A DNA stretch of 32,000 bases from Geotalea uraniireducens Rf4. Its GTDB lineage: Bacteria > Desulfobacterota > Desulfuromonadia > Geobacterales > Geobacteraceae. Shown here piece after piece: positions 3,001 to 30,823 of the stretch. Every line of letters begins with the position of its first letter. The first letter of the stretch is position 1. Under the pieces are notes generated by a model that had not been told where the DNA came from, did not search any database, and was given only the letters and a program-made list of their open reading frames with translations. The DNA lies in NCBI RefSeq assembly GCF_000016745.1, contig NC_009483.1, positions 3,510,001-3,542,000 on the forward strand, read 5' to 3'. Both the position numbers and the translations under genes were made by a program.

Positions 3001-6000
3001 TTCGACGATGGAAGGAATATTCCCTCCCGACCAGATGGGTACGCCGTCGGCCTTCAACTCCACAAGGGTGAGCTGTCTGTTGTCTGAAACATTCACCACT
3101 ATGGCCACATTGGCACCGGCCGCAGCCTCGGCAGGGCTCTGCAGAGACAGGACGGGCGACTGGCTGTCCAGCGAGACGCCGACACTGGCGCTCCCCTTGT
3201 TGCCGGCCCGGTCAGTAGCCTCTATGTTGAGGATGTTGTCGCCCTCGGCAAGTGTATAGACAACACTGAAGGTCTGATTGGTGACGGTGATGGCAGTGCC
3301 GTTGATAGTGGCGGTAGTATGGGGCTTGCTGATGATGCCGGAAACGGTTACCTGCGCTGTTTTGGTAATGGTGCCGGAAAGGGGCGCAGTGATGGTAACC
3401 ACGGGGGGTGTATTGTCGAGGGTGACGAGAACGGTTTTCGTGGCCTGATTTCCTGCAAGGTCCGTGGCAACAAGGGTGATGGTATTGAGCCCCGGTGTCA
3501 GGGTCAACGGCTGATCGAAATCGAGACTGCTCAAGGTTGCAGCCTGACCGTTGATGGTAAGGCCGGCAACCGGTTCGTCGATGTTACCTTTGACCGTAAC
3601 CTGCGGCGCACTGAAGAAGGCGTTTTCTGCCGGAACGGTGACGGTTATGACCGGCGCCCTGGTATCGAGAACGATGCCGAGGGGAACTGAGGGAATACTC
3701 TCGTTGCCTGCTGCGTCGGTGGCGATGGCAGTGTAGGAGTTTGTCCCCTCCGCCAGGGTAACGCCTGCCAGGGTGAAGCTACCCTGGGCGTCTGCGGTGA
3801 CGGTGCCGATGAGCAAACCTGCGGCAGATATTTTCACGCTTGATCCTGCTTCGGCAGTGCCGCCAAGGGTGACCCCGGCCACATTGGTCGGACTGGTGAG
3901 CGAATTGAGTACCGGAGCTTGCGGCGGCGTGGAGTCTAGCGTGACATTGACCGTTGCCGAACCGCTGTTGCCGGCCCGGTCGGTTGCTTTTACAGTAATG
4001 AAATTTGCTTCCTCGCTTAATGTATATGCGGCTGACCAGGTTTTGCCCGAGACGGTGGCAGTAATGGTGTTAACGGTAACCGTGGTGAATTCTTCACTGA
4101 CTGTTCCGGAAACGATTACCTGCTTATCCCTGGTGAGAAGTCCGGCTGCCGGTGTGACGATGGTCACCTGCGGGGGGGTGGTGTCCAGGTAAACGGGAAC
4201 AGAGGTGGTTCCCTCATTTCCGGCCAGATCCTTTGCCTTGACGACAAGCGTGTTCGCTCCCTCTGCAAGAGTTATTGTGAGACTGAACGAAAGCCCATCG
4301 ACAACGGCTGACGTATTATTCACCGTAACCGAAGTGACCGGTTCGTTGACCATACCGGTGACGGTGATCTGCGGCGTGTTGAGGAATGCATTTGCTGTCG
4401 GCGCGGTTATTATTATGACCGGCGGCGTAATGTCGAGAACAGCGCTGACCGGTGACGATGCGGAACTTTCGTTACCTGCCGCGTCGATGGCTGCAGCAGT
4501 GTATGTGTTAATCCCTTCAACAAGTGTTGCGCCCCCCAGACTGAACTTCCCTTCAGCATCGGCAGGCACTGTGCCGAAAATCACCCCGCCAGCGACCACC
4601 TTTACACTGGCATCCGCTTCGGCAGTGCCGCTGATCGTAACCGCAGCCAGGTTGGTTGGTGTGGTGAGTGGGTTGAGCAGCGGCGCGGCCGGTGGTGTGG
4701 AATCGAGGGTAACATTGACAGTGGCGCTGCCCGGGTTTCCGGTCCGGTCGGTCGCCTGAACGGTGATGCTGTTTGCACCTTCGCTCAGGGTGTAATCAAC
4801 CAGGGTCCAATCTTTTCCATTGACCTGGGCGGGAATATTGTTGACGGTAACCGCCGTTACATCTTCACTGACCGTTCCGGTCACGGTCACCTTGCTGTTT
4901 CGGGTCAGGAGTCCCGATGCCGGTGCGCTGATTGTGACAACCGGGGGCACGGTATCGGTAACGAAGCTCCAGATACGGCTGGCGACGTTGGCGGCGCGGT
5001 CGGCTACGCTGAGGCTGACAGCATGGCTGCCATCGGGCAACTTTGAGCCGGGGGCATAGGAGATGGCGGCGGCAGTTATGGACGCAGCAGCGGAGACATC
5101 GTTTCCATCCACCAAAAGCCGCACACTGGCCGTGTTGATGCCGGAGCCGTTGGTCTCGTCCGAATAGGAGGCGGAAATGACCGGCAGCGGGTTGTTGAGG
5201 AGAGCCCCGTCTGCCGGAGAAATGGCGGAGATGACCGGCGGTGTGCTGTCGCACCCCTTGCCGATGATCTCTATGATGAGAAAGGAGGGTCCCCTTTTCC
5301 GGATCTCGTCGATTTTCCGCGCCAGATCGTCCAGATGCCTGACGTTTTCATCGATGGCATGATTTATCCCTTCAAGCTCCTTAAGCAGTTCCGAGAGTTT
5401 TTCCCTCTTCTTTTCGTGATCTTTTTCTCTCTTGCTCGCTGACCGATCAAATGTGTCGAGGGCGGCCTTACAGGATCGGATGGCATCCTCTGTATCCCTT
5501 TTCGATTTTTCTATGCCCGTCCGGTCATGTTCGACCCAATCCTTTCCGATTTCGTGCCCGTTTTTCTCCCTATCCCAACCATCTTCTTTGTCATCTGCAT
5601 CGTCGTCTTCATCATCAAGGCTCTTACGTACCCCGGCCAGGTGCTCATCCCGATCGCCGTAACCTTTTTTAATGCGCTGGAATTCCAGGAGGATTCTTTC
5701 AAGCGTTTTGATGTCGTAGGGTGGTTTCAGGCCGGCAATTTCATTTTCCAGCAATTGCAGTTTGGCCAGATCCTTTTCCAGATCCGACTGCCTGGCCTGA
5801 TACTTTGCCAGCTGATCAAAATAGCCGTGGTGACCGCTTTTGAGTATCACCTTCAGCTCATTTAGCTGCTGTACGGCTACGAGTTTTTCAAAGGTCGCAA
5901 TCTTGTGTTTGAACTCGCTTTCTCCGGCAATCTTGCTGCCGTTTATGTAAATCCTTGCCGATTTGATCCGGGTATTTTTACTATCGCCGTTTTGCACCCG

Positions 6001-6225
6001 GACGAGCGCAAGGTCGGAGGGATTGCAGCGCTCGAAAGTGTCCGTATAAACGGTGGGCTTCCCCTTGAGCCGGTCATAGCGCTTCGGACCGAAGACCGTC
6101 ATGTCCGCTCCGGCAAAAGAGTAGGAAACGGATACGAGCAGCATCAGCAGAGCCACACCGAAAGCAGCCGCTGGCCGCGCATTGCGCAATGAATTCTTCA
6201 GAACTTGAAAGGGACTACCAGCCAT
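1..6225 (-). CDS. Giant secreted/cell-surface protein with tandem bacterial Ig-like domains (first 2075 codons; 3' end lies beyond the left window edge)
   Basis: Not in the ORF track because it has no stop in the window. The minus frame whose codons end at nt 1 is open throughout: every listed minus ORF in 1-6225 is in one of the other two frames. I hand-translated segments at 6225-6100, 4980-4921, 2880-2821 and 1020-961 without meeting a stop. ATG at 6225-6223 with GGAGAG 8 nt upstream. N-terminus MAGSPFQVLKNSLRNARPAAAFGVALLMLLVSVSYSFAGA is a signal/anchor. It is followed by a charged coiled-coil-like stretch (..SLDDEDDDADDKEDGWDREKNG..KREKDHEKKREKLSELLKELE..). Then come many ~85-95 aa modules of the form D(T/S)TPP..(V/I)TI..P......T..V.V.G.V.....V.VN.......L.EG.N.I.V.A.D.AGN....A.V.V.LD. 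A CarboxypepD_reg-like segment (GYVQGKVLEDERGLLLADAQVTVTDENGEVKTLTTAADGGYF) and an SbsA/Big_5-like segment (PTVVSVSPTGINIQPNVPVVITFSKSMDQSSINSQTLKLL) also occur. The plus-strand ORFs listed here are mirror-frame artefacts. Confidence 0.85.
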   Translation of the reverse strand, partial: MAGSPFQVLKNSLRNARPAAAFGVALLMLLVSVSYSFAGADMTVFGPKRYDRLKGKPTVYTDTFERCNPSDLALVRVQNGDSKNTRIKSARIYINGSKIAGESEFKHKIATFEKLVAVQQLNELKVILKSGHHGYFDQLAKYQARQSDLEKDLAKLQLLENEIAGLKPPYDIKTLERILLEFQRIKKGYGDRDEHLAGVRKSLDDEDDDADDKEDGWDREKNGHEIGKDWVEHDRTGIEKSKRDTEDAIRSCKAALDTFDRSASKREKDHEKKREKLSELLKELEGINHAIDENVRHLDDLARKIDEIRKRGPSFLIIEIIGKGCDSTPPVISAISPADGALLNNPLPVISASYSDETNGSGINTASVRLLVDGNDVSAAASITAAAISYAPGSKLPDGSHAVSLSVADRAANVASRIWSFVTDTVPPVVTISAPASGLLTRNSKVTVTGTVSEDVTAVTVNNIPAQVNGKDWTLVDYTLSEGANSITVQATDRTGNPGSATVNVTLDSTPPAAPLLNPLTTPTNLAAVTISGTAEADASVKVVAGGVIFGTVPADAEGKFSLGGATLVEGINTYTAAAIDAAGNESSASSPVSAVLDITPPVIIITAPTANAFLNTPQITVTGMVNEPVTSVTVNNTSAVVDGLSFSLTITLAEGANTLVVKAKDLAGNEGTTSVPVYLDTTPPQVTIVTPAAGLLTRDKQVIVSGTVSEEFTTVTVNTITATVSGKTWSAAYTLSEEANFITVKATDRAGNSGSATVNVTLDSTPPQAPVLNSLTSPTNVAGVTLGGTAEAGSSVKISAAGLLIGTVTADAQGSFTLAGVTLAEGTNSYTAIATDAAGNESIPSVPLGIVLDTRAPVITVTVPAENAFFSAPQVTVKGNIDEPVAGLTINGQAATLSSLDFDQPLTLTPGLNTITLVATDLAGNQATKTVLVTLDNTPPVVTITAPLSGTITKTAQVTVSGIISKPHTTATINGTAITVTNQTFSVVYTLAEGDNILNIEATDRAGNKGSASVGVSLDSQSPVLSLQSPAEAAAGANVAIVVNVSDNRQLTLVELKADGVPIWSGGNIPSIVESVSYKLSPSLNTGSEVVFQARGIDVAGNEGSATTRVKISQAAMGPGYVQGKVLEDERGLLLADAQVTVTDENGEVKTLTTAADGGYFTENQSGNAVVGVIKPGFTSVERIVPVMPEKKATALDARLTKINGTKNVIDAIGGTIRVDVGAGLPRPAIELTIPNGALSNQADIRLTPVSNQGLAGMLPPGWSPLAAVDVRLLDPTAGTALYTGFSSAAALKIPVQVPLAQASGTVLTLAAYDSTSHQWRSKGNATIAADGLSASADITAAGQYALLIADPAPNAPAAAEAGNPLAPASTASLDYAAINTAGKVVPQASPPSTGLKAAGEVLLTAKDGVTPAPQFISGFIINNRVTEKFDLKSGDKVEPSAYTQDIVLYRQPCITNIAAGALTQPAVSGVGGGVSGVELRTTFPVSPSRDFTLVDLLLGKVGIEIVKPDATDSGIMVGADGGRLVDADGNILVIPQGALARTTPVATKNGAAATGAVGNDFTLLKVVEVNLTRQTLAQSATISIPAPDGFNPSLPLLVAKQIDVKGVQKLKLVALARQNGSFITTEPLTSQLQNSLNSSNSINSSGVYYFLQAKGQIGFATGTVTDSSNAPFNGALVKTDNGSLIDLSAATGKYLVAAPVAAVTATATDLYKNDEGSATGAIAANQAIIIDLKILMILPTVVSVSPTGINIQPNVPVVITFSKSMDQSSINSQTLKLLDSAGTAVPGVFTFSVDGKVVTFTPADLLKSQQSYTITIAGTIKDLQGYPLGQDVTSGFTIRNTTPPPMPPAGSITASFPDADGFISITATQGSSPADCTVLIINDTSGEIVSVVPAGNGSFTGKVRGQLGDEIKIVIMDNSGNQTLVSYLTFKSDDGNYLVTAKGGKVEGEGGSILDIPEGALSGPTIVKLTFVPEASLASPVPAPGTYLSAFNIDTGGIDFQKEVHLSMPLPDGFDPTTPVFVNRPSEIYNADGTIEKVYEIIDSTKVINNRITTASPPFTGIVQIGSFAFISF
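3130..4956 (-). repeat. Intragenic tandem duplication of a ~256-aa three-Ig-domain supermodule (two full copies plus the first domain of a third)
   Basis: Module starts: DTVPPVVTISAP (D codon 4956-4954), DTTPPQVTIVTP (4185-4183) and DNTPPVVTITAP (3417-3415), giving periods of 771 and 768 nt. Corresponding domains align along their length, e.g. ATDRTGNPGSATVNVTLDSTPPAAPLLNPLTTPTN versus ATDRAGNSGSATVNVTLDSTPPQAPVLNSLTSPTN. Confidence 0.8.
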
Positions 6226-6275
6226 AATATTTCTCTCCCCTGGGATACTTGTAAGACGATCTCCTGCACAGGCCC

Positions 6276-6576
6276 GCAGGAGCCATCCTATAACCACAAA
6301 GCATGCCAAAACGAAAGGCAGATGGAAACCATACAATAAACAGTTAATAACCAGCTGAATATAAACAATAATTTTTAAATTTAGTTTTCTGGAATTTCAG
6401 AGGTGAGAGAATGAATGGGAGGCGATTTTTTGTGGAGATATTGTAAAATTTTTTTACACATCGCCGTAGAAGCCCATGGGACAAGGCTTTACATTCTTGT
6501 AAAAATTTTTTACACATGTCCGTAAACCCTTGCCTGGCAAGGGTTTAGACTTATTGTAAAAAAATTTTACACTTGG
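6276..6576 (-). promoter_or_regulatory. Copy 1 of a 301-bp AT-rich upstream module with three TGT-(A/T)11-ACA palindromes and one GC palindrome
   Basis: Ungapped alignment with 17688-17988 (offset 11412). 17-bp sites at 6442-6458, 6498-6514 and 6555-6571. Palindrome AAACCCTTGCC-T-GGCAAGGGTTT at 6524-6546. Lies 50 nt 5' of the giant-protein ATG (6225). Confidence 0.6.
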
Positions 6577-6641
6577 CCGTTCGGCACTGGCCCATCCGGC
6601 CAAGAAGGTCTGCTCACCTTGTGGGGTGCCCTCTTTTCAGC

Positions 6642-9894: not shown

Positions 9895-10449
9895 CTACGG
9901 AATCCAGTTGAGCGTCTGCTTCTGAAAGTCGATGGTGTACTTGAGGCCGCCGAGGAAAGTCATGCCGAGCAGCCCGTCCCCCATAATGCCGGCACGCTGC
10001 CTGATAATGACAACCTCCTGCCTGGCGCGCCGGATCGGTCCCACCCGCATCTGAGTAAGGACCCCTTTTCGGGCCTTGAGCACCTTGCCCCCCACCACGC
10101 CGACCCGCACATTGTCCGTCTCGCCGATGTTGAGACGGGCCGCCACTTCAGGGGTGATCACAGACGTGGTGGCCCCGGTATCAAGCAGGAGCATGGCCTC
10201 GGTTTCCGCTTCGCCGTTCGTCAGGGTCACCGGCACAAACACCTGGAGGCCTGAGATGACTACCGGCGTCGAGAGGAGAGCCCGCTGCCGCTCCCTGGCC
10301 GCCTTGGCCTCGGCAGCCTTGCGCGCCTGGAGGGACTGGGCCTGCTCGGCCTCCTCCTGTTGCTTCGCCGCGGCCCGCTCGTTTCGTTCCTTCTCCAGCA
10401 TCACAGCCCGCTCGTCCTCCGGCAGGTCGTCGTACTTGTCCTTACGCAC
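9895..10449 (-). CDS. Retropepsin-like (clan AA) aspartic protease, probably 5'-truncated by the adjacent IS
   Basis: DTG active-site context LLLDTGATTSVITPEVAARLNI, preceded by a charged coiled-coil-like region. The listed start is a GTG with no SD at a usable distance. The frame stays open for 26 more codons (GGDRNGTLHFVEDPSHIPKEYRNKKQ) right up to the IS boundary at 10529/10530. Confidence 0.65.
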   Translation of the reverse strand: MRKDKYDDLPEDERAVMLEKERNERAAAKQQEEAEQAQSLQARKAAEAKAARERQRALLSTPVVISGLQVFVPVTLTNGEAETEAMLLLDTGATTSVITPEVAARLNIGETDNVRVGVVGGKVLKARKGVLTQMRVGPIRRARQEVVIIRQRAGIMGDGLLGMTFLGGLKYTIDFQKQTLNWIP

Positions 10450-10688
10450 CTGCTTCTTGTTCCGGTACTCCTTGGGGATATGGGACGGATCTTCTACAAA
10501 GTGGAGCGTGCCGTTTCGATCCCCCCCTGTGTCAGAATAGTTGTCGCCTCAGATGGGTTGTTTAGCCACGGTCTTCCGAGCTGAATTGCAACGAGCGTAG
10601 CGAGCTTGCGATTCAGCTCGAAAGACCGGGACCGGCAAAAGCCGGCGACCCGTATTTTTTCAACATCTGGGGGCAGCAAGGATCTATA

Positions 10689-11222
10689 ATGACATACACA
10701 CAAGGATTCAAATCCAGCCTGGTTCGCAAGATGGCCTGCCCTAATGGCGTCTCGGCCTCAGCTCTATCCCGAGAAGTGGGAATTCCCCAACAATCACTCT
10801 CTCGCTGGCTTCGAGACGCAAATGTCGTGAATGAATCTGGTAACTCCCCAATTTCTGAAGCACCATGGAGAACAATGTCCCCAAAGCGCCCACAAGACAA
10901 GTCTGCCGAAGAAAAGCTCAAAATCGTCATCGAAGCCGAGACGGTTGCCGAAGATCAACTTGGCGCCTTCCTGCGTCGCAATGGAATTCATGAAGCACAG
11001 TTACGCGAGTGGCGCGCCATGATGCTTTCGGGGCTGCAAAAACCGTCTCGGCCTTCCTCAAAAACATCAGAGGAAACTCGCAAAATTCATGCACTGGAAA
11101 AAGAATTACTGCGCAAAGATAAAGCATTGGCCGAGGCCGCCGCGATTTTGATCCTCAAAAAAAAAGTCCAATCGATCTGGGGGGGCGAGGACGAGCCCAC
11201 GGACAAGAGGAACGGCAGATGA
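10689..11222 (+). CDS. IS3-family transposase OrfA (HTH plus leucine-zipper-like region)
   Basis: 177 aa. HTH-like GVSASALSREVGIPQQSLSRWLRD. Coiled region IHALEKELLRKDKALAEAAAILILKKK ends at the slippery A-run. Confidence 0.85.
   Translation: MTYTQGFKSSLVRKMACPNGVSASALSREVGIPQQSLSRWLRDANVVNESGNSPISEAPWRTMSPKRPQDKSAEEKLKIVIEAETVAEDQLGAFLRRNGIHEAQLREWRAMMLSGLQKPSRPSSKTSEETRKIHALEKELLRKDKALAEAAAILILKKKVQSIWGGEDEPTDKRNGR
11157..11166 (+). other. Programmed -1 ribosomal frameshift site (A9G run) of the IS3-family element
   Basis: CTC AAA AAA AAA G in the orfA frame. The -1 frame (orfB frame; 11219 is 2 mod 3 versus 0 for orfA) is open across the site (..FDPQKKSPIDLGGRGRAHGQEERQM..), which would give an OrfAB fusion. 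Confidence 0.6.
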
Positions 11223-12244
11223 TCGGGCAACTTATTGAAGAGGCAACCCATTCCGGAGCGAGACTTGAATCGGCCGTTGTCGCCATCGGGCTGAGCATTC
11301 GCACGTTCCAGCGTTGGAATCTCCAGGATGACGGAGCAGATCGGCGACATGGGCCAGTCGCAGAACCGGCGAACAAGCTGGCTCCGTCGGAGCGGCAGAA
11401 CATCATCGATATTGCAAACTCCCCGGCGTTTCGGGATATTTCGCCGAAACAGATCGTGCCGCAATTGGCCGATCAGGGAATATACGTGGCGTCGGAATCG
11501 AGTTTCTACCGGGTGCTCAAAGACGATGGGCTGATGACTCACCGGGAACCCTCCCGGCCCGCCACCAGCCGCAAGCCAAAAGAACATGTGGCTACCGGTC
11601 CTTGCCAGGTCTGGTCATGGGACATCACCTACTTGAAGAGCCCGATTCTTGGGCAGTTCTTTTATCTCTACATGATCATGGATGTCTGGAGCCGCAAGAT
11701 CGTAGCGTCCACGGTGTTTTTAAAAGAATCCAATGACTATAGCGCCAGGCTGTTTCTGAAAGCCTGTATCAGGCTCGGCATCAATCCGGAAGGCCTGATT
11801 CTTCACTCCGACAACGGCGGCCCGATGAAAGGGGCGACCATGCTGGCTACTCTCCAGCGCCTGGGCGTAATTCCTTCCTTCAGCAGGCCACAGGTCAGTG
11901 ACGACAACCCTTTCTCAGAAGCGCTGTTCCGAACCATGAAATATAGACCTGGTTATCCGAGTCGGCCTTTTTCAAGTCTGGCAGCGGCCCAGACTTGGGT
12001 TGATGGTTTCGTCGCTTGGTATAACACGGAGCATCTGCACAGCGGCATTCGCTTCGTCACCCCGGACGATCGCCACTTCGGCCGGGAGAAAGCCATCCTG
12101 TTAAACCGCCGGGAGATATACGAGAAGGCCCGGCAACAAAACCCAAACCGCTGGTCAAAAAACATCCGAAACTGGGAGCCAGTGGAAACAGTTTATCTTA
12201 ACCCTGAACCAACGGCGGAAGTCGAACTTCTTGACGCCGCATAA
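11219..12244 (+). CDS. IS3-family transposase OrfB (DDE/rve integrase core)
   Basis: 341 aa. VWSWDITYL (first D), LHSDNGGPMKG (second D), VSDDNPFSEALFRTMKYRP (E region), WYNTEHLHSGIRFVTPDDRHFG tail. ATGA overlap with the orfA stop. Confidence 0.88.
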   Translation: MIGQLIEEATHSGARLESAVVAIGLSIRTFQRWNLQDDGADRRHGPVAEPANKLAPSERQNIIDIANSPAFRDISPKQIVPQLADQGIYVASESSFYRVLKDDGLMTHREPSRPATSRKPKEHVATGPCQVWSWDITYLKSPILGQFFYLYMIMDVWSRKIVASTVFLKESNDYSARLFLKACIRLGINPEGLILHSDNGGPMKGATMLATLQRLGVIPSFSRPQVSDDNPFSEALFRTMKYRPGYPSRPFSSLAAAQTWVDGFVAWYNTEHLHSGIRFVTPDDRHFGREKAILLNRREIYEKARQQNPNRWSKNIRNWEPVETVYLNPEPTAEVELLDAA

Positions 12245-12275
12245 AAATTCAACAGAGGCGACAACTACCTTGACA

Positions 12276-12892
12276 CCCGCCGCCAATGCCCGACCGCGCC
12301 CGTCCATGCTGATGGCGATGTTGTGCAAGGTGAGGACGCTGGTAAATGCATCGCTTGTGAACTGGCAGCCCTGGTCGGTGTTAAATATCTCAGGGCAACC
12401 AAACGTTCGAAGCGATTGCTCCAGGCAATCAACGCAGAACCCGCTGTCGAGTGAGTTCGATAATCGCCAGGCCAGTACCTTGCGCGAATACCAGTCGATC
12501 ACTGCAGCAAGGTACGCAAACCCGCGTGCCAGGCGGATGTAAGTGATGTCAGTACTCCAGACCTGATTTGGCCGGGACACGTTTAACCCTCTGAGCAGGT
12601 ACGGATAAACCTTGTGCTGAGGATGAGGACGGCTGGTATTTGGCCCTGGCGCCATGCCAGCCAACCCCAAGACCCCCATCAATCGCTGAACTCGCTTACG
12701 GTTGACGGGATGGCCTTTGGTGGCCAGATGCACCACCATTTTACGGCTACCGTAGAACGGGTGACAGGTATATTCAGCATCAATCAAAGCCAGCAACAGC
12801 AATTCCAATTCATCCGGTACGGCGACAAAATGGGGGGCATAAACAGTAGAACGGGCTACGCCCGCTAACTCGCATTGCCGGGTGAGCGCCAT
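12276..12892 (-). pseudogene. Truncated IS3-family transposase OrfB (lacks the segment that should carry the catalytic E)
   Basis: QVWSTDITYIRL (D), EIFNTDQGCQFTS (D), ISMDGRGRAL. After that the listed ORF 12155..12892 reads on into the terminal IR of the other IS (..AAGVKVVVASVEFL..), which is non-transposase sequence. Confidence 0.75.
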
Positions 12893-12927
12893 GGAACCTT
12901 GCAGATCTACCCAGCGCCTGCGGTCTG

Positions 12928-13221
12928 CTACTGGCCAATCCCGGACTTTTTTTTAAGCCAGTCAAGTTCCATCTTCAACCGCCCGATTTCCGAGTAGAGC
13001 CGCTCAGGGCTGGCGGAAGGATCATCGGGCTTGGGGCCGCGCTTGGAATCGAAAATTCCAGGTGCCTGTGCGATCAGGGCTTTCTTCCATTCCCCAACCT
13101 GGGTCGGATGGATAGCAAATTCCTGGGCGATTTCATTCAAGGTCTTCGTCCCTCGGATCGCTTCGAGTGCGACTTTTGCCTTGTGCTGACTGGTGAAACT
13201 TTTACGGCTCTTTTCGCTCAT
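12928..13221 (-). CDS. IS3-family transposase OrfA (HTH_Tnp_1-like)
   Basis: MSEKSRKSFTSQHKAKVALEAIRGTKTLNEIAQEFAIHPTQVGEWKK.. The internal ATG at 13221 has AAGGAG 7 nt upstream and is preferred over the ATG at 13251. It ends in LKKKSGIGQ across the slippery run. Confidence 0.8.
   Translation of the reverse strand: MSEKSRKSFTSQHKAKVALEAIRGTKTLNEIAQEFAIHPTQVGEWKKALIAQAPGIFDSKRGPKPDDPSASPERLYSEIGRLKMELDWLKKKSGIGQ
12946..12954 (-). other. Canonical IS3 A-AAA-AAG -1 frameshift motif
   Basis: Minus strand reads CTT AAA AAA AAG TCC. The orfB frame (12892) is -1 relative to orfA (13221-12892=329, which is 2 mod 3). Confidence 0.6.
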
Positions 13222-13286
13222 TGCCTGCTCCTTTTTATCGCAGGCTACCATCTTAAACTATTGTCCGAAAATTGGGGTCCACTATA

Positions 13287-14223
13287 GTTCAATAGAAGCT
13301 TTAAGCCGAAACCTTGTCCGCAGAAAGAACGGAAACTGGGGATAAAGGCGGATAAACCCTTTCATCTTTGCTTTTGCCTGATCCGCTTTGATCATCTTTT
13401 TCCGCCTGTACTGCGTTCAAATCCCAGGTTCTGTTTTATCCGCCTCTAGATGCTTTCCGCCTGATCAACTTCAGGGCGTTCAATAGAAGCTTTAAGCCGA
13501 AACCTTGTCCGCAGAAAAAACGGAAACTGGGGATAAAGGCGGATAAACCCTTTCATCTTTGCTTTTGCCTGATCCGCTTTGATCATCTTTTTCCGCCTGT
13601 ACTGCGTTCAAATCCCAGGTTCTGTTTTATCCGCCTCTAGATGCTTTCCGCCTGATCAACTTCAGGGCGTTCAATAGAAGCTTTAAGCCGAAACCTTGTC
13701 CGCAGAAAAAACGGAAACTGGGGATAAAGGCGGATAAACCCTTTCATCTTTGCTTTTGCCTGATCCGCTTTGATCATCTTTTTCCGCCTGTACTGCGTTC
13801 AAATCCCAGGTTCTGTTTTATCCGCCTCTAGATGCTTTCCGCCTGATCAACTTCAGGGCGTTCAATAGAAGCTTTAAGCCGAAACCTTGTCCGCAGAAAA
13901 AACGGAAACTGGGGATAAAGGCGGATAAACCCTTTCATCTTTGCTTTTGCCTGATCCGCTTTGATCATCTTTTTCCGCCTGTACTGCGTTCAAATCCCAG
14001 GTTCTGTTTTATCCGCCTCTAGATGCTTTCCGCCTGATCAACTTCAGGGCGTTCAATAGAAGCTTTAAGCCGAAACCTTGTCCGCAGAAAAAACGGAAAC
14101 TGGGGATAAAGGCGGATAAACCCTTTCATCTTTGCTTTTGCCTGATCCGCTTTGATCATCTTTTTCCGCCTGTACTGCGTTCAAATCCCAGGTTCTGTTT
14201 TATCCGCCTCTAGATGCTTTCCG
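13287..14223. repeat. Tandem array of a 191-bp unit, 4.9 copies, near-identical
   Basis: Unit starts (GTTCAATAGAAGC) at 13287, 13478, 13669, 13860 and 14051, exactly 191 apart. The last copy stops at 14223. The only difference I can see is G at 13327 in copy 1 versus A in the others. No ORF of 60 aa or more in any frame; 191 is not a multiple of 3. Confidence 0.95.
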
Positions 14224-14622
14224 TCTATTATCAAAGGATCTACGTCTAACCTGCGGCTGCGGACCAAAGTTCAGCAGTAGACCAACCTCAATTTCCGTTG
14301 CTCTGAGATAATTGAACAACTGCGATTCATGCTCCGGGGCAAGTTGTTTTACGGCCTTGACTTCTACAATGACTTTCCCCTCGACGAGAATGTCGGCAAA
14401 ATAGTCACCAACCGGATTTTCTCCGTAATAGACCGTAATCGGCCATTGAGCGGTTGCTGTAATCTGTCTCTTTGCCAGCTCCAACAGGAGTGCATTCTCA
14501 TACACCTTTTCCAGAAAGCCGAATCCAAGCGTGTTGTAGACAGTGTAGAAACAGCAGATAATGGCATCAGTCAATTCCCGATGCTTGTAGATGTCTTCGT
14601 CATTACACCCCCTGTCCGTCAT
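14200..14622 (-). CDS. GxxExxY-family protein (PD-(D/E)XK nuclease-like fold)
   Basis: 140 aa. Family-typical layout: LTDAIICCFYTVYNTLGFGFLEKVYENALLLEL, VGDYFADILVEGKVIVEVKAV, HESQLFNYLRATEIEVGLLLNFG. The last 7 codons plus the stop lie inside the 191-bp repeat. Confidence 0.75.
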   Translation of the reverse strand: MTDRGCNDEDIYKHRELTDAIICCFYTVYNTLGFGFLEKVYENALLLELAKRQITATAQWPITVYYGENPVGDYFADILVEGKVIVEVKAVKQLAPEHESQLFNYLRATEIEVGLLLNFGPQPQVRRRSFDNRRKASRGG

Positions 14623-14636
14623 GGCCCCCCGCCCCC

Positions 14637-14686
14637 CTATTCTGCCCTATTCTGCCCTATTCTGCCCTGTTCTGCCCTATTCTGCC
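14637..14686. repeat. 10-bp tandem repeat CTATTCTGCC x5 (fourth copy CTGTTCTGCC)
   Basis: Read directly. It begins 15 nt upstream of the GxxExxY ATG (14622). On the coding strand it reads GGCAGAATAG x5. Confidence 0.95.
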
Positions 14687-14831
14687 CAATAGCAAAATGC
14701 CTGCGTGTCGGACCCACACATTTCACTTGCCGATTCCCGAGGAGTTCCGGGACGGAGTTCCGGGGACGCCATACTTATTCACCGATAATGATTGGCATGG
14801 CGTCTCCGAAATTCCCCGAATGCTCCGTTCG

Positions 14832-16229
14832 TTACATCAATCCAAGAGACGTCTTGCTGAACACCTTGGCGTAGTAATCGCTATCAGACTTGATAAACAC
14901 AATGATGCTGTTCGGGGTATTGAATACTTGTTTCGGCTCGGCAACGATATCGATGGACATTGTTGTGAAGAGGGTGTCCTGCTTGATGACCAGTAGCTTC
15001 TTGATATTGTCGCTATTCAGCATGTAGAGGTTGCCGAGATCATCGTCGGATACCAAGTCGATGAAAGTATGGCCGAGATTACCGGCATAGGTGATATCGT
15101 CAGCGGCTGCAGGCGATGAGATGAACATGTTGCCGGACCCGGTGGCAATACGAGTGTCGCTATTCATTACCCGAATCGGAGCTCCGAAACCGTAGTCACC
15201 GTGGTAACGGGAATCGCCAATGCTATCGATCGTCCCTGTCGACGCGTTGATTGCCAGATGATGCATGTCCGCCGGCGACAGCCCGCTGTCAAGGGCATAG
15301 GCCATGCCGGTGGCCTGATTGAAGGTGAAATTGCTGAGCGGATACCAATAGCTCTTGCTGGTGACGATTTGTCCGTTTTCCAGGTTGATGGTCTCATAGG
15401 TATTCGATGGCCCCCAGCCGGTTCCATTGCCGACCAGCACAAACTTGGAAGAAACGGGTACCAGTGCATTGATGGAGATCAGAGAATCAGCCAGCAACGT
15501 GAGGCTTTCGTCGGCTATGTTCAGCCGATAGATCTTGCCGGTGGAATACCCCAGCAAAAGGGAGCCGCCGGCCGTCTCGACTGCCAACGCCTGCGGCGAA
15601 GCCTGCAGCGGGATGTCCTTTTCGCGCACCAGCGTATCGGCGTAAACAGCCAGCACTCCGGCGCTGCTGTCGAAAATGTAAAACTTCTTATTCACCTTGT
15701 CCTGCAGGATCGTGCTGACAAACTGACGGATCTTGGAATAACCGGGGAGTTTGTTGAAGCCGACGGACAGGCTGACGCTGCCTGTCGTCGCGGGATCGAC
15801 TACGGCACTGGCCGGATCGAAGAGAATTTCCGCGGCGACTTGGGCACCGGCAACGACATTGACGTCGACAGAACCGGTATAGATAAGCGCCTGGCCATTG
15901 TAAGCATTGGCCGTTACGCGCCAGTACCCCTTTGCCAGGCCTGTAACTGTGCCGGATGCCACATTGTTTGCTACACTCAGATCCGTTACAATATCCGTAT
16001 AACCGTCTCGAGACAGAGTGGCGCTCACTGCAGTAATCGTATTGGTGCTAGTCGTCATGGTACTAAATGCGATTTTGGCTGCAGAGCTGGCGTTATGTTG
16101 CAGCGTTGCAAGGTCGATTTGCAGACTTACGGTTCCGGTTGCATTGTTAGCTGTTGACGCCCCTGTCCCACAACCAGCCATGATTCCCAAGGCAAACATA
16201 AGCAGCAGATAGACTGAAATCTTTTTCAT
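14832..16229 (-). CDS. Lipoprotein of unknown function (N-terminal Ig-like region, C-terminal beta-propeller-like region)
   Basis: The listed ORF starts at 16385, but the internal ATG at 16229 has GAGGAGGAGGG upstream and gives MKKISVYLLLMFALGIMAGC (signal peptide plus lipobox). The 52 upstream codons run through a palindromic repeat. No family recognised. Confidence 0.7.
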   Translation of the reverse strand: MKKISVYLLLMFALGIMAGCGTGASTANNATGTVSLQIDLATLQHNASSAAKIAFSTMTTSTNTITAVSATLSRDGYTDIVTDLSVANNVASGTVTGLAKGYWRVTANAYNGQALIYTGSVDVNVVAGAQVAAEILFDPASAVVDPATTGSVSLSVGFNKLPGYSKIRQFVSTILQDKVNKKFYIFDSSAGVLAVYADTLVREKDIPLQASPQALAVETAGGSLLLGYSTGKIYRLNIADESLTLLADSLISINALVPVSSKFVLVGNGTGWGPSNTYETINLENGQIVTSKSYWYPLSNFTFNQATGMAYALDSGLSPADMHHLAINASTGTIDSIGDSRYHGDYGFGAPIRVMNSDTRIATGSGNMFISSPAAADDITYAGNLGHTFIDLVSDDDLGNLYMLNSDNIKKLLVIKQDTLFTTMSIDIVAEPKQVFNTPNSIIVFIKSDSDYYAKVFSKTSLGLM

Positions 16230-20118: not shown

Positions 20119-20259
20119 ACCGCAAAGGACCCAAAGGACCCAAAGGGCCTAAAGGACCTAAAACGCGAAGAGCGCGAAGAAAACAAATCATATAGATTTT
20201 TGGCTCTTAAACCCAAAAAAGGTTTCGGATATTCTTCGCCTCCTTTGCGCCTTTGCGGT
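20119..20259. repeat. Composite hairpin element whose arms are short tandem units (type C)
   Basis: The left arm is ACCGCAAAGG followed by 9-bp units CAAAGGACC x4 (20123-20158) and GCGAAGA x2. The right arm ATTCTTCGCCTCCTTTGCGCCTTTGCGGT (20231-20259) is its imperfect reverse complement. Confidence 0.85.
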
Positions 20260-22739: not shown

Positions 22740-22867
22740 CCACGAATGACACGAATAAACACGAATGTTTTTAACCCCATGTTAAGTCTTGAGTAGTCAA
22801 CAATCTTGTGAGATTCTTCTTCATCACAAGAGCTTGTATATTCGTGCAAATTCGTGCAAATTCGTGG
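22740..22867. repeat. Composite hairpin element built from CACGAAT-containing ~10-bp units (type C)
   Basis: Left arm CCACGAATGACACGAATAAACACGAAT (22740-22766). Right arm ATTCGTGCAAATTCGTGCAAATTCGTGG (22840-22867). Inner 8-bp hairpin TCTTGTGA-N12-TCACAAGA at 22803-22830. Confidence 0.85.
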
Positions 22868-22911: not shown

Positions 22912-23688
22912 TCAGCGCAATACGGCGGTCTTTTCTTTCAATATCCCGATCAGCCGGTCGGCCAGGTCGCCGACATCCCCTTCCAGGACGATGCCTCCTC
23001 CCTTCTTTGCCGGCGGGTACATCCGTTCGGTGGTGACAAGCCCCTCTTCCTTGAGCAGATCCGCAACCGGCAGGGCGAGGATCTCCTTCTTCTTCGCTTT
23101 CATGATGTTGGGGAGGGTCGGATAACGGGGGATATTCAGGCCCAGCTGACAGGTAACGAGCGCCGGCAGCCTGAGCTTCACCACACCCTTGGTCCCACCC
23201 TCCAGCTCCCTCTTCGCCGTGACCACGCCGTTATCGAAGGCAAAGCCGACCAGGGTGGTGGCGCAGGCATAGCCGAGCAGTTCGGCCACGGTCACCCCCA
23301 CCTGGGCCGAGCCACGGTCCTGGGACTGCATGCCGGTGAAGATCAGGTCGAAACCCTGGTCTTTGGCATATGCGGCGATGATGGACGCCATCTGCCAGGG
23401 ATCTTTCCGGTAGTGGTGGTTGTCCCGGACATGAACACCCCGGTCGCACCCCATGGCCAGCGCCTTCTTGAGCGCTTCAACAACCCGGTCGGGGCCGATG
23501 GAGAGGACGGTAATCACGGGCTCGCCCCCCAGCTGCTCCTTGAGCCGCACCGCCTGCTCCACCGCATATTCGTCGTATTCGTTCATGCGATAGGCAAGAT
23601 CGGCCTCGTCGTACCAGACCCCTTCAGAATTGATCTTGAACCGTGATTCCATATCCGGAACCTGTTTTATGCAGACTAGTATGTTCAT
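22912..23688 (-). CDS. etfB: Electron transfer flavoprotein, beta subunit
   Basis: The true start is the ATG at 23688 (GGAGGT SD), giving MNILVCIKQVPDMESRF.. The listed 43-codon N-terminal extension (GSGRGVGGEWAG repeats) is a translation of the 11-bp microsatellite. Confidence 0.92.
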   Translation of the reverse strand: MNILVCIKQVPDMESRFKINSEGVWYDEADLAYRMNEYDEYAVEQAVRLKEQLGGEPVITVLSIGPDRVVEALKKALAMGCDRGVHVRDNHHYRKDPWQMASIIAAYAKDQGFDLIFTGMQSQDRGSAQVGVTVAELLGYACATTLVGFAFDNGVVTAKRELEGGTKGVVKLRLPALVTCQLGLNIPRYPTLPNIMKAKKKEILALPVADLLKEEGLVTTERMYPPAKKGGGIVLEGDVGDLADRLIGILKEKTAVLR

Positions 23689-23703
23689 ATGAACCTCCGA
23701 TTC

Positions 23704-23829
23704 GTAGGGGCGGGGTCTCCCCGCCCACTCCCCGCCCACTCCCCGCCCACTCCCCGCCCACTCCCCGCCCACTCCCCGCCCACTCCCCGCCCAGCAACCC
23801 CGCCCGGGGCACGGCAACCGTGCCCCTAC
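23704..23829. repeat. REP-like element, type B, expanded by an internal microsatellite
   Basis: Ends GTAGGGGC ... GCCCCTAC. It overlaps the stop codon (23826-23828) of the Fe-S oxidoreductase gene. Confidence 0.85.
23719..23794. repeat. 11-bp microsatellite CCCCGCCCACT x6 plus a partial seventh unit
   Basis: Units start at 23719, 23730, 23741, 23752, 23763 and 23774. The partial unit CCCCGCCCAG starts at 23785. Confidence 0.95.
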
Positions 23830-30633: not shown

Positions 30634-30752
30634 GTGCGCTGCCTGCCAGGTTTTAGGAAAAAAATGGGGAAATTTTTTAATGCTGTGGAGGCAGGAGTCT
30701 TGGATCATGTTTAGACGTTAAAAGAATTTGCAAGTTATTTACGAACTTTAGG

Positions 30753-30782
30753 TTGACAAATAATCACAATATGGTTTACAAA
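30753..30782 (+). promoter_or_regulatory. Candidate sigma70 promoter for the islet gene
   Basis: TTGACA (30753-30758), an 18-nt spacer, then TACAAA (30777-30782). A second possibility is TTTACA-N18-TACAAT just downstream. Very AT-rich context, so specificity is low. Confidence 0.35.
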
Positions 30783-30823
30783 TAATATATAAAATGTTTA
30801 CAATAATTTAAACGAGGTCGATC

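What the first reader, a model, noticed from the sequence alone, without database searches (positions are those of the whole stretch)
13287..14223. Near-perfect 191-bp tandem array (4.9 copies) rich in GGCGGA(A/T)AA motifs, wedged between an IS end and a GxxExxY gene
Seen: five phased units exactly 191 bp apart with a single visible substitution (13327). There are no spacers, so it is not CRISPR. It has no coding potential (no ORF of 60 aa or more; the period is not divisible by 3). Each unit holds GGCGGA(T/A)AA-type motifs: GGCGGATAAA once on the plus strand, and GGCGGAAAA, GGCGGATAAAA and GGCGGAAAG plus a GCGGATCAGG variant on the minus strand. That gives 20-plus motif copies in the array. 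GGCGGATAAA and TTTATCCGCC form a 10-bp inverted pair about 80 nt apart in every unit. The array starts 6 nt from the terminus of the truncated IS3 element (13281). Such identity over about 940 bp implies very recent amplification or active homogenisation. Possible roles (inference): an iteron-like protein-binding array, a tandemly amplified small-RNA/terminator region, or a hypervariable megasatellite.
Basis: partly seen in the sequence, partly recalled or inferred. Interest (0 to 1): 0.7.

Follow-up and report, generated by a model that had tools for sequence, protein, structure and literature searches.

The report
Hairpin-repeat cluster beside a GxxExxY nuclease gene
The 191-bp array is real: it is a strain-variable tandem cluster of a conserved ~100-nt hairpin element that accompanies a small nuclease-fold gene of unknown function (GxxExxY), which resembles the hairpin clusters found next to REP-associated transposase genes and gives a testable lead on that gene family.

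Summary
There are 4.9 copies of a 191-bp unit at 13287-14223, with one substitution.

The array is not a free-standing satellite. It starts inside the last 24 nt of the GxxExxY (PDDEXK_3) gene. Each unit is a copy of the gene tail, a leader, a ~100-nt imperfect hairpin and a ~29-nt spacer.

Three metagenome contigs of a related strain carry only 1.8 copies at the same locus. The 10-bp repeat upstream of the gene also varies, from 5 to 13 copies.

The hairpin core recurs, usually as two or more tandem copies, next to related GxxExxY genes in unrelated contexts. It is 85-89% conserved where four-fold codon sites are about 60% identical. One Geobacteraceae locus has a 122-bp x5.3 array of the same element.

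In several phyla GxxExxY ORFs are bracketed by repeats built of 9-10-nt sub-repeats, and they sit as insertions inside operons. A Sphingomonas relative shows the empty fabD|fabG site. In Gemmatirosa the ORF-less hairpin lies at 17 places against 2 genes.

Best reading: a REPIN-cluster-like array of an ORF-less hairpin derivative, expanded by unequal recombination. Binding by the nuclease is inferred, not shown. CRISPR, iteron and attC readings fail, and nothing matches in Rfam.

The parts
13287..14223 (-). Tandem array, 4.9 copies of 191 bp. Read on the gene (minus) strand, each unit is: 15 nt, then a 27-nt copy of the gene tail (AGGCGGAAAGCATCTAGAGGCGGATAA), a 19-nt leader, a 101-nt hairpin core and a 29-nt spacer (AAGGTTTCGGCTTAAAGCTTCTATTGAAC).
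   Evidence: TRF; copy comparison; alignment with L059 and L061; core extraction.
14080..14180 (-). Hairpin core 1, proximal to the gene.
   Evidence: nhmmer hit, E 2e-31. 40-nt arms, 70% complementary, 27-nt loop. Fold -31.5 kcal/mol, z -3.0.
13889..13989 (-). Hairpin core 2.
   Evidence: nhmmer.
13698..13798 (-). Hairpin core 3.
   Evidence: nhmmer.
13507..13607 (-). Hairpin core 4.
   Evidence: nhmmer.
13316..13416 (-). Hairpin core 5, distal. It carries the 13327 variant (ccgttctttctgcgg), which is also the variant of the distal copy in L059, L060 and L065.
14200..14622 (-). GxxExxY / PDDEXK_3 gene, 140 aa. The last seven codons and the stop lie inside the first repeat unit.
   Evidence: Pfam PF13366, 2.5e-40. 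TIGR04256, 1.4e-39. AlphaFold2 model pLDDT 89, with lambda-exonuclease/Cas4-like folds as the nearest solved structures.
14635..14687 (-). 10-bp microsatellite, (GGGCAGAATA) x5.3, ending 12 nt upstream of the GxxExxY ATG. It has 10.3, at least 12.7 and 13 copies in related contigs, and a single copy in L061. It resembles the sub-repeat of the left hairpin arm in L077.
12155..13286 (-). Truncated IS3-family element (orfA 12928-13251, partial orfB 12155-12892). Its end abuts the spacer of the distal repeat unit and cuts off the original distal end of the array.
   Evidence: Pfam HTH_28 and rve; breakpoints against L059.
10523..12300 (+). Second IS3-family element (ORFs 10689-11222 and 11219-12244), inserted into the first. 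The right-hand limit (12300) is approximate. Together the two elements replace about 530 bp that is present in L059, including the first ~98 nt of the Asp_protease_2 gene.

Best explanation
The array is a tandem cluster of an ORF-less hairpin element that belongs with the adjacent GxxExxY (PD-(D/E)XK-fold) gene.

GxxExxY ORFs travel as compact modules. There is no conserved promoter; homology starts about 25-30 nt before the ATG. The ORF is bracketed or followed by lineage-specific repeats whose arms consist of two to four 9-10-nt sub-repeats of the type C[A/G]C[A/G]GA. Here these are CGCAGTACA, GGCGGAAAA and GCGGATCAG, plus their complements on the other arm.

Where the two arms are joined by a short loop instead of the ORF, they form a ~75-100-nt hairpin. 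This is a miniature, non-autonomous version of the element. Such hairpins, each with a short conserved spacer, sit in tandem next to the gene.

In the window lineage a 190/191-bp block (gene tail, leader, hairpin, spacer) that existed as 1.8 copies was expanded to at least 4.9 copies. The mechanism is most likely unequal recombination or replication slippage between the existing copies. An IS3-family insertion with an associated deletion then removed the distal end.

Shown: the anatomy, the conservation, the linkage to the gene, insertion polymorphism of IR-bracketed ORFs, dispersal of solo hairpins in one genome, and copy-number variation.

Inferred: that the sub-repeats are binding sites of the GxxExxY protein, that this protein cuts or mobilises the hairpin (or acts on it in some other way), and that the expansion itself is selectively neutral.
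For: 1. Array and anatomy.

2. Copy-number variation at the same locus. The window has 4.9 copies. L059, L060 and L065 have 1.8 copies, with flanks 92-97% identical. The upstream 10-mer runs to 5.3, 10.3, at least 12.7 and 13 copies.

3. The core recurs 3' of related GxxExxY genes whose neighbours are unrelated: L061 (2 copies, period 153), L062 (2 copies, period 129), L068 (one copy plus a 12-nt stub), L069/L070 (2 copies, period 147), L063 (one near-perfect hairpin, z -7.2). L066 and L067 break inside the 3' arm.

4. Purifying selection. The core is 85-89% identical between loci whose coding sequences are only 60-61% identical at four-fold sites. The arms are invariant and the loop is variable.

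5. L077 has a 122-bp x5.3 array (91% identity) of the same element upstream of its GxxExxY gene, plus 2-3 copies downstream. The downstream region occurs as three structural alleles (279, 393 and 670 nt), one with a 277-bp duplication that carries ~95 nt of gene tail.

6. ORFs bracketed by repeats:
- L087/L092: 30 nt, 90% complementary, between cbiQ and cbiO.
- L094 Bacteroides: z 10.2.
- L096 Sphingomonas: between fabD and fabG, z 11.5.
- L071: z 8.4.
- Direct-repeat brackets in L089 and L097.

7. Empty site. fabD|fabG are adjacent with a 30-nt spacer in S. paeninsulae. A gap of the same size separates the fabD and fabG matches in a Methylobacterium and a Rhizobium record.

8. Solo hairpins outnumber genes in Gemmatirosa: 7+10 places against 2+0 genes. 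One solo copy lies between convergent genes with no GxxExxY gene within 1.5 kb.

9. Published analogue. [quoted passage not shown]
Against: - No binding, cleavage or transposition data exist. The role of the protein is pure inference.
- Within the close set of 8 cores, none of the 21 predicted pairs shows compensatory change and 6 cells break pairs. The hairpin is supported only by its persistence with different sequence in distant variants.
- In the Geobacteraceae data held here every copy of the element lies within about 700 nt of a GxxExxY gene. The invariant 20-mer hit only one locus in the metagenome collection. Dispersal is therefore shown only in Gemmatirosa, where adjacency to the gene could be coincidence.
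- In the window-type loci no significant inverted repeat brackets the ORF itself.
- Short-read assemblies may collapse copy number, so '1.8' is a lower bound.
Confidence: 0.7

Rival explanations
1. RNA-level element. The hairpins act in the transcript. In bracketed loci the two arms pair around the ORF and hide its ribosome-binding site and ATG (fold-back control as in hok mRNA), or they create an RNase III site that cuts the selfish ORF out of the host operon transcript, as in rRNA intervening sequences. The ORF-less hairpins downstream would then be 3'-end stabilisers, processing sites or insulators, and extra copies would simply add more of them.
For: - In L087 the ATG lies inside the left arm, and all three mismatches of the 30-nt stem are G.U on the sense strand.
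- The L063 hairpin is far more stable on the sense strand: -34.4 against -21.2 kcal/mol.
- The modules have no conserved promoter and sit co-directionally inside operons.
- The core folds better than shuffled sequence, z -3.0.
Against: - There is no consistent sense/antisense asymmetry across 13 elements.
- No covariation is seen.
- In L091 and L071 the mismatches fall in the linkers while the 6-nt cores are kept on both arms. That pattern fits repeated binding sites better than base pairing.
- No terminator-like site was found and nothing matched in Rfam.
- Direct-repeat brackets (L089, L097) cannot pair.
Confidence: 0.2
2. Type III toxin-antitoxin-like pair. The tandem repeats encode a repetitive RNA that is processed by the nuclease-fold protein and neutralises it.
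For: - Direct tandem repeats (2-5 copies) lie next to a small nuclease-fold gene.
- In L077 the array lies upstream of the gene, as toxI does for toxN.
- The neighbourhoods look like defence islands: PemK, Abi_alpha, GmrSD, a Shedu-like domain.
- Described type III systems have antitoxins made of tandem RNA repeats (PMC3401426).
Against: - The units are 122-191 nt, against about 36 nt for ToxI (repeat length from my own knowledge).
- The protein is PD-(D/E)XK, not ToxN/AbiQ-like, and has no significant PADLOC hit.
- No promoter or terminator frames the array.
- Many family members (L087, L094, L096) have no array at all, only bracketing arms.
Confidence: 0.06
3. Neutral megasatellite or assembly artefact. 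This would be a chance tandem duplication of a 3' flank with no function, or a copy number inflated by the assembler.
For: - The internal copies are 100% identical.
- Short-read contigs break at the array.
- The genome has many other short intergenic tandem repeats, as reported for Geobacter bemidjiensis (PMC2996986).
Against: - The tandem state is seen in four independent assemblies.
- The core is conserved far above the neutral level.
- Multi-copy arrays recur at unrelated GxxExxY loci, one of them old at 91% identity.
- The expansion from 1.8 to 4.9 copies may well be neutral, but the element is not.
Confidence: 0.08
4. Iteron, centromere or origin-type protein-binding array, or an integron attC cassette array.
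For: - The array is motif-dense and phased, and the upstream 10-bp repeat has one-helical-turn spacing.
- The module has cassette-like architecture: a promoterless ORF followed by an imperfect palindrome.
Against: - The context is chromosomal beta-oxidation and ETF genes. The Pfam and NCBIfam scans covered most but not all large ORFs and found no rep, par or integrase gene.
- The unit is far longer than iterons (17-22 bp, from my own knowledge).
- The attC end consensus RYYYAAC/GTTRRRY is absent at the core ends, by inspection.
- L087-type loci have half-hairpins on each side of the ORF, which attC recombination does not produce.
- There is no match in the plasmid or phage collections.
Confidence: 0.03

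Closest known systems
REPIN clusters adjacent to RAYT genes (REP/REPIN-RAYT systems; Bertels & Rainey 2011, PMC3116915)
   Same: - Hairpin elements of ~70-110 nt made of two inverted arms.
- Ordered clusters that are tandem repeats of nearly identical units including their flanking sequences, up to ~700 bp.
- Clusters located beside the single associated nuclease or transposase gene.
- Lineage-specific 'flavours' of repeat matched to the gene.
- Solo copies dispersed in intergenic space, shown here only for Gemmatirosa.
   Different: - The partner gene is a ~125-aa PD-(D/E)XK fold protein (GxxExxY), not an HUH/Y1 tyrosine transposase.
- The arms are built of 9-10-nt sub-repeats, not a REP with a conserved 5' tetranucleotide.
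- The ORF itself can sit inside the hairpin loop.
- GxxExxY genes are not known to be limited to one copy per genome: Gemmatirosa plasmid 1 carries two, and my recollection is that the family is often multi-copy.
- Genome-wide dispersal in Geobacteraceae has not been shown.
IS/MITE pairs (autonomous element with terminal inverted repeats plus ORF-less miniature derivatives)
   Same: - IR-bracketed ORF with defined ends.
- Insertion polymorphism between species (fabD|fabG filled against empty).
- ORF-less derivatives consisting of the two ends.
   Different: - The whole element is only ~440-500 bp.
- The encoded protein is a minimal nuclease domain with no known transposase chemistry.
- No target-site duplication could be defined.
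- Some lineages have direct, not inverted, brackets.
Free-standing homing endonuclease genes, and ORFs inside rRNA intervening sequences
   Same: - A small selfish nuclease ORF inserted co-directionally into very short intergenic spacers of conserved operons, relying on host transcription.
- In intervening sequences the ORF lies in the loop of a long stem formed by the flanks (from my own knowledge).
   Different: - No cognate target cleavage or homing is shown.
- Homing genes need no flanking repeats.
- The loci here are not in rRNA.
Type III toxin-antitoxin loci (toxIN, cptIN, tenpIN; PMC3401426)
   Same: Tandem direct non-coding repeats next to a small nuclease gene.
   Different: Unit length is 3-5 times longer, the protein fold is different, the repeats are mostly downstream, and there is no promoter/terminator frame.

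Membership tests
CRISPR array | Short direct repeats separated by unique spacers of similar length | tested here: not met
   The whole 191-bp unit repeats, and so does the 29-nt 'spacer' between cores. That spacer is also conserved in other loci.
Iterons / plasmid origin | Repeats of ~17-22 bp next to a rep gene on a replicon | tested here: not met
   The unit is 191 bp. The neighbours are chromosomal metabolic genes and IS elements. No rep or par domain was found, and there is no plasmid match.
Integron attC / gene cassette array | Imperfect palindrome ending in RYYYAAC ... GTTRRRY, with an intI gene nearby | tested here: not met
   The core ends are (A/G)ACGCAG...CTGCG(G/T)AC. No GTTRRRY is present, and the closest 5' match, ATTGAAC, fits 6 of 7 positions in the spacer only (by inspection). 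No integrase domain was found in the ORFs scanned. No attC covariance model was available.
REPIN/RAYT system | Hairpin made of two inverted repeats with a short loop | tested here: met
   40-nt arms, 70% complementary, 27-nt loop; fold z -3.0. Variants in L063, L077 and L091 reach 80-91% complementarity.
REPIN/RAYT system | Associated gene is a Y1 (HUH, IS200/IS605-like) transposase | tested here: not met
   The adjacent gene is PF13366/TIGR04256, with a PD-(D/E)XK fold.
REPIN/RAYT system | Tens to hundreds of copies dispersed in extragenic space of the same genome | tested here: inconclusive
   No copy lies outside the locus in the 32-kb window, in 20 kb of L059, or (by exact 20-mer) in the 80-kb contig of L065. 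In Gemmatirosa a related hairpin occurs at 17 places on 2.1 Mb. The source genome could not be scanned.
REPIN/RAYT system | Ordered tandem clusters (flank-hairpin-flank units) beside the associated gene | tested here: met
   Window 4.9 x 191 bp; L077 5.3 x 122 bp; L061, L062 and L069 two copies each. Description of REPIN clusters from PMC3116915.
Intrinsic terminator / 3' stabiliser hairpin | GC-rich stem with a 3-8-nt loop, directly followed by a U tract | tested here: not met
   The scan found 0 terminator-like sites in 13000-15000. The T run lies inside the 3' arm of a long imperfect stem.
Known structured RNA (Rfam 15) | Match to a curated covariance model | tested here: not met
   No hit at gathering score in the window. 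Only chance-level hits at E up to 10 in the locus and in six related loci.
Type III toxin-antitoxin | Tandem RNA repeats, then a terminator, then a ToxN/AbiQ-type endoribonuclease | tested here: not met
   The protein family is different. No terminator was found. The repeats are downstream in the window.
Variable-number tandem repeat (VNTR / megasatellite) | Same locus, different copy number among strains | tested here: met
   4.9 against 1.8 copies, and 5.3 to 13 copies for the upstream 10-mer. Caveat: short-read assemblies can collapse copies.

The most novel reading that the evidence does not exclude
GxxExxY proteins form a family of more than 14,000 clusters at 50% identity with no assigned function. 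In this reading they are the nucleases of an unrecognised class of miniature selfish elements. An ORF of ~125 codons is bracketed by arms built from the protein's own 9-10-nt binding sub-repeats. ORF-less hairpin derivatives spread and form tandem clusters, in parallel to REPIN/RAYT but with PD-(D/E)XK chemistry. The window's 191-bp array and its 10-bp upstream microsatellite would then be two expansions of the same binding-site repertoire around one master gene.
Probability: 0.3. Interest if true: 0.8.

Novelty: new variant of a known kind. Interest (0 to 1): 0.55.

Why it matters
GxxExxY/PDDEXK_3 is a very large family. It has 14,630 representative clusters at E up to 1e-3, it occurs across many phyla, and no function for it appears in the searchable literature.

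This locus led to a simple rule that can be tested. These ORFs come with lineage-specific flanking repeats made of short sub-repeats. They insert into operon spacers. They leave ORF-less hairpins that can cluster in tandem and vary in copy number.

If the protein recognises those sub-repeats, three things follow. The family gains a function. There would be a second, independent example of the persistent 'nuclease plus hairpin population' life style known from REPIN/RAYT. It would also explain the odd peptide tails that gene callers attach to these proteins, such as ...PQIKAEEAD and MNAEKADF....

In practice the array and the 10-bp repeat are strain markers for this uncultured Geobacteraceae lineage, and they are a predictable break point for short-read assemblies.

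Tried and rejected
- Genome-collection scan with GGCGGAAAG-N(4-14)-GGCGGATAAAA gave 57 single hits with no similarity beyond the pattern and no GxxExxY gene nearby, so all are chance.
- BLASTN of the unit, and of the L077 unit, against plasmids and phages found nothing.
- Viral-contig scans with core 20-mers or 17-mers and with the protein gave only chance matches plus one distant gene.
- Rfam at gathering and relaxed thresholds found nothing. No tRNA or tmRNA was found. The T-arm-like GCGTTCAAATCCCAG is not part of a tRNA and is not conserved in other loci.
- The promoter/terminator scan found nothing in the array.
- The coding reading was rejected. The 46-aa ORF is not conserved and the periods differ between loci (129, 147, 153 and 191 nt).
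- The covariation test on 8 cores gave no compensatory pairs. The strand-asymmetry test was inconsistent.
- Supplements of two Geobacter genome papers that list multicopy sequences contained no matching strings.
- The attempt to find an empty cbiQ|cbiO site failed. The 87%-identical relative also carries the insertion. A fabD|fabG empty site was found instead.
- PADLOC and PDB sequence searches of the protein were uninformative.
Full report
**1. The observation**

TRF finds one large array in the window: 13287-14223, period 191, 4.9 copies, 99% matches, no indels.
- Copies 2-4 are identical. Copy 1 differs only at 13327. Copy 5 is exact for 173 nt and ends at 14223.
- No other copy of the unit exists in the 32-kb window.
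- 15 of the 16 GGCGGA[AT]AA sites in the window lie in the array.
- No ORF of 60 aa or more crosses it.

The description is therefore correct, with one amendment. The proximal 24 nt of the array (14200-14223) are the last seven codons and the stop of the GxxExxY gene at 14200-14622 on the minus strand.

**2. Context**

The window is chromosomal DNA of an uncultured Geobacteraceae. A 661-aa Fe-S oxidoreductase is 79-81% identical to proteins from Oryzomonas, Geobacter and Geoanaerobacter. The region also holds ETF, acyl-CoA dehydrogenase, thiolase and related genes.

On the distal side of the array lies a truncated IS3-family element, itself interrupted by a second IS3-family element.

Three JGI metagenome contigs (L059, L060, L065) carry the syntenic locus of a strain whose flanks are 92-97% identical, without the IS elements.
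- There the array has 1.8 copies of a 190-bp unit and is followed by ~530 nt of unique DNA and an intact Asp_protease_2 gene.
- In the window the IS pair replaces that DNA and the first ~98 nt of the protease gene.
- The window's distal copy runs on into spacer sequence before it meets the IS, so the array was once longer.
- The distal copy shares its diagnostic variant (ccgttctttctgcgg) with the distal copy of the other strain, which places the expansion in the interior copies.

A Logan unitig with the identical gene stops 31 nt into the array, as expected for a repeat longer than k.

The 10-bp repeat just upstream of the gene's ATG (14635-14687) has 5.3 copies here. It has 10.3, at least 12.7 and 13 copies in the other contigs.

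**3. Anatomy of the unit**

Read on the gene strand, a unit consists of:
- 15 nt;
- a 27-nt copy of the gene tail (AGGCGGAAAGCATCTAGAGGCGGATAA);
- a 19-nt leader;
- a 101-nt core (ACGCAGTACAGGCGGAAAAAGATGATCAAAGCGGATCAGG ... TTTATCCGCCTTTATCCCCAGTTTCCGTTTTTTCTGCGGAC);
- a 29-nt spacer (AAGGTTTCGGCTTAAAGCTTCTATTGAAC).

The core is an imperfect hairpin with 40-nt arms, 70% complementary, and a 27-nt loop. It folds at -31.5 kcal/mol, z -3.0 against shuffles.

**4. Relatives of the unit**

The closest GxxExxY proteins were traced to their contigs.

The same core, not the gene-tail or leader part, follows the gene in loci whose neighbours are unrelated to those of the window:
- L061: 85% aa identity; PemK and Abi_alpha neighbours; two cores 153 nt apart.
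- L062: 88% aa identity; two cores 129 nt apart.
- L068: one core plus a 12-nt stub of a second.
- L069/L070: a shorter variant, two copies 147 nt apart, the first overlapping the gene tail.
- L063: one near-perfect hairpin, z -7.2.
- L066/L067: the contigs break inside the 3' arm.

Between the window and L061 or L062, four-fold degenerate sites of the gene are 60-61% identical while the cores are 85-89% identical. The arms are almost invariant and the loop is variable. The core is therefore under constraint.

The two copies in L062 are as different from each other (86%) as from copies in other loci, so the tandem state is old.

Homology to the left of the gene ends about 25-30 nt before the ATG. 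At that point L061 has a single GGGCAGAACAGGGG where the window species has its 10-bp microsatellite.

A profile of the core found more copies. In L077-L086, the locus of protein P0020 from a Geobacteraceae MAG, a 122-bp x5.3 array at 91% identity lies upstream of the gene, and 2-3 more copies lie downstream. Its unit is a hairpin plus a conserved spacer.

The downstream region of that locus exists as three structural alleles in different metagenomes, with 279, 393 and 670 nt between the genes. The longest carries a 277-bp duplication that includes ~95 nt of gene tail. This is the same kind of event as in the window. Multi-copy arrays and copy-number changes are thus a recurring trait of this element.

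**5. What the hairpin is related to**

In L087 and L092 a GxxExxY ORF sits between cbiQ and cbiO.
- It is bracketed by a 30-nt inverted repeat, 90% complementary (GGACGCAGATGAACGCAGAAAAGGCGGATT / AATCCGTTTTTTCTGCGTTTATCTGCGTCC). The ATG lies inside the left arm and the stop lies at the right arm.
- The arms are kept between the two loci while the adjacent gene tail diverges.
- These arms are homologous to the arms of the ORF-less hairpins.

Other brackets:
- Bacteroides finegoldii: 30 nt, z 10.2, between radA and the next gene.
- Sphingomonas parapaucimobilis: z 11.5, between fabD and fabG.
- A viral contig: z 8.4.
- Direct-repeat brackets in a Fusobacteria plasmid (52 nt) and in Prevotella (z 13.9).

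In every case the arms are made of two to four 9-10-nt sub-repeats whose sequence differs by lineage: CGCAGA/GCGGAT, CACAGAGGA, CGCGAAG, CACGGAT, CGCGGAT.

S. paeninsulae has fabD and fabG adjacent with a 30-nt spacer. A gap of the same size separates the fabD and fabG matches in a Methylobacterium and a Rhizobium record. The ~440-nt bracketed ORF is therefore an insertion.

In Gemmatirosa an ORF-less hairpin (32-nt arms, 91% complementary, 9-nt loop) follows a GxxExxY gene. Related hairpins occur at 7 and 10 places on two megaplasmids that hold 2 and 0 GxxExxY genes. One solo copy lies between convergent genes with no such gene within 1.5 kb.

**6. Interpretation**

What is shown:
- The array is a tandem cluster of a conserved, gene-linked hairpin element.
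- The cluster varies in copy number.
- Related ORFs are compact inserted modules bounded by the same kind of arms.
- ORF-less hairpins can be dispersed.

The closest described parallel is the REPIN cluster. These are tandem repeats of nearly identical hairpins including flanking sequence, up to ~700 bp, some lying next to RAYT genes (PMC3116915).

What is inferred:
- The sub-repeats are sites for the GxxExxY protein. Its AlphaFold2 model (pLDDT 89) is a minimal PD-(D/E)XK fold, nearest to lambda-exonuclease and Cas4-type structures.
- The expansion from 1.8 to 4.9 copies arose by unequal recombination or slippage and may be neutral.

**7. Rivals**

An RNA-level role (fold-back control or RNase III processing) has some support. 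In L087 all three stem mismatches are G.U on the sense strand. The L063 hairpin shows a 13 kcal/mol strand asymmetry.
- Against it, strand asymmetry is inconsistent across 13 elements.
- There is no covariation in the close set.
- Direct-repeat brackets cannot pair.
- Mismatches in L091 and L071 fall between conserved 6-nt cores.

Type III toxin-antitoxin, iteron, attC, CRISPR, terminator and known-RNA readings each fail a defining feature.

An assembly artefact is unlikely for the tandem state, which four independent assemblies show. It cannot be excluded for the exact number of copies.

**8. Novelty and limits**

The searchable literature gives no function for GxxExxY/PF13366 and does not mention its flanking repeats. 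The family is large, with 14,630 clusters at 50% identity.

I rate the finding a new variant of a known kind: a REPIN-cluster-like array tied to a different nuclease family.

Main limits:
- The sample of loci is small.
- The source genome could not be scanned.
- Dispersal is shown in one distant genome only.
- There is no experimental evidence.

Noticed in passing
window 14635-14687: 10-bp microsatellite (GGGCAGAATA on the gene strand) ending 12 nt upstream of the GxxExxY ATG. It has 5.3 copies here, 10.3, at least 12.7 and 13 copies in related contigs, and a single copy in L061. It may be an expanded sub-repeat of the element's left arm, and it could alter expression of the gene.
   Followed up: partly
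window 23717-23793: A perfect 11-bp x7 tandem repeat (CTCCCCGCCCA) between the Fe-S oxidoreductase gene (23826-25811, minus) and the true start of etfB (about 23688). The listed ORF 22912-23817 over-extends through it.
   Followed up: no
window 20123-20162, 22840-22866, 30751-30807, 6439-6580: Further short intergenic tandem repeats (9 bp x4.4, 10 bp x2.7, 22 bp x2.6, 56 bp x2.5). This fits the report of abundant 6-42-nt intergenic direct repeats in Geobacter bemidjiensis (PMC2996986).
   Followed up: no
window 10523-13286 and 9895-10522: Nested IS3-family elements, one inserted into the orfB of the other. Relative to L059 they replace ~530 bp and the first ~98 nt of an Asp_protease_2 gene, leaving a 5'-truncated gene.
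   Followed up: partly
window 1-6396 (minus strand): One open reading frame of at least 2,132 codons runs off the left end of the window, probably a giant surface protein. The ORF listing does not report it because it is cut by the window edge.
   Followed up: no
L087 2493-2969; L092 1260-1740: A Geobacter GxxExxY ORF inserted between cbiQ and cbiO of the cobalt ECF transporter operon, bracketed by a 30-nt inverted repeat. The ATG lies inside the left arm. The insertion is shared by two relatives whose CbiQ proteins are 87% identical.
   Followed up: yes
L096 (Sphingomonas parapaucimobilis) against L098 (S. paeninsulae): A GxxExxY ORF with inverted-repeat arms fills the fabD-fabG spacer in one species. 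The relative has the empty 30-nt spacer. The ORF's stop overlaps the fabG ribosome-binding site.
   Followed up: yes
L093 1495-1575 (Gemmatirosa plasmid 2): A solo hairpin made of four ACGCGGATC sub-repeats and three inverted ones, lying between convergent genes. It is one of 17 related places on two megaplasmids that carry only two GxxExxY genes.
   Followed up: partly
L059 1888-6779: In the related strain, the region a few kb from the GxxExxY locus encodes an HATPase_c_3/SduA_C (Shedu-like) protein and a DEAD/ResIII helicase. Other GxxExxY loci sit next to PemK, Abi_alpha and GmrSD genes, which looks like defence-island surroundings.
   Followed up: no
protein search: Several family representatives of 250-273 aa contain two GxxExxY domains. 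These are either read-through of tandem genes or true fusions.
   Followed up: no
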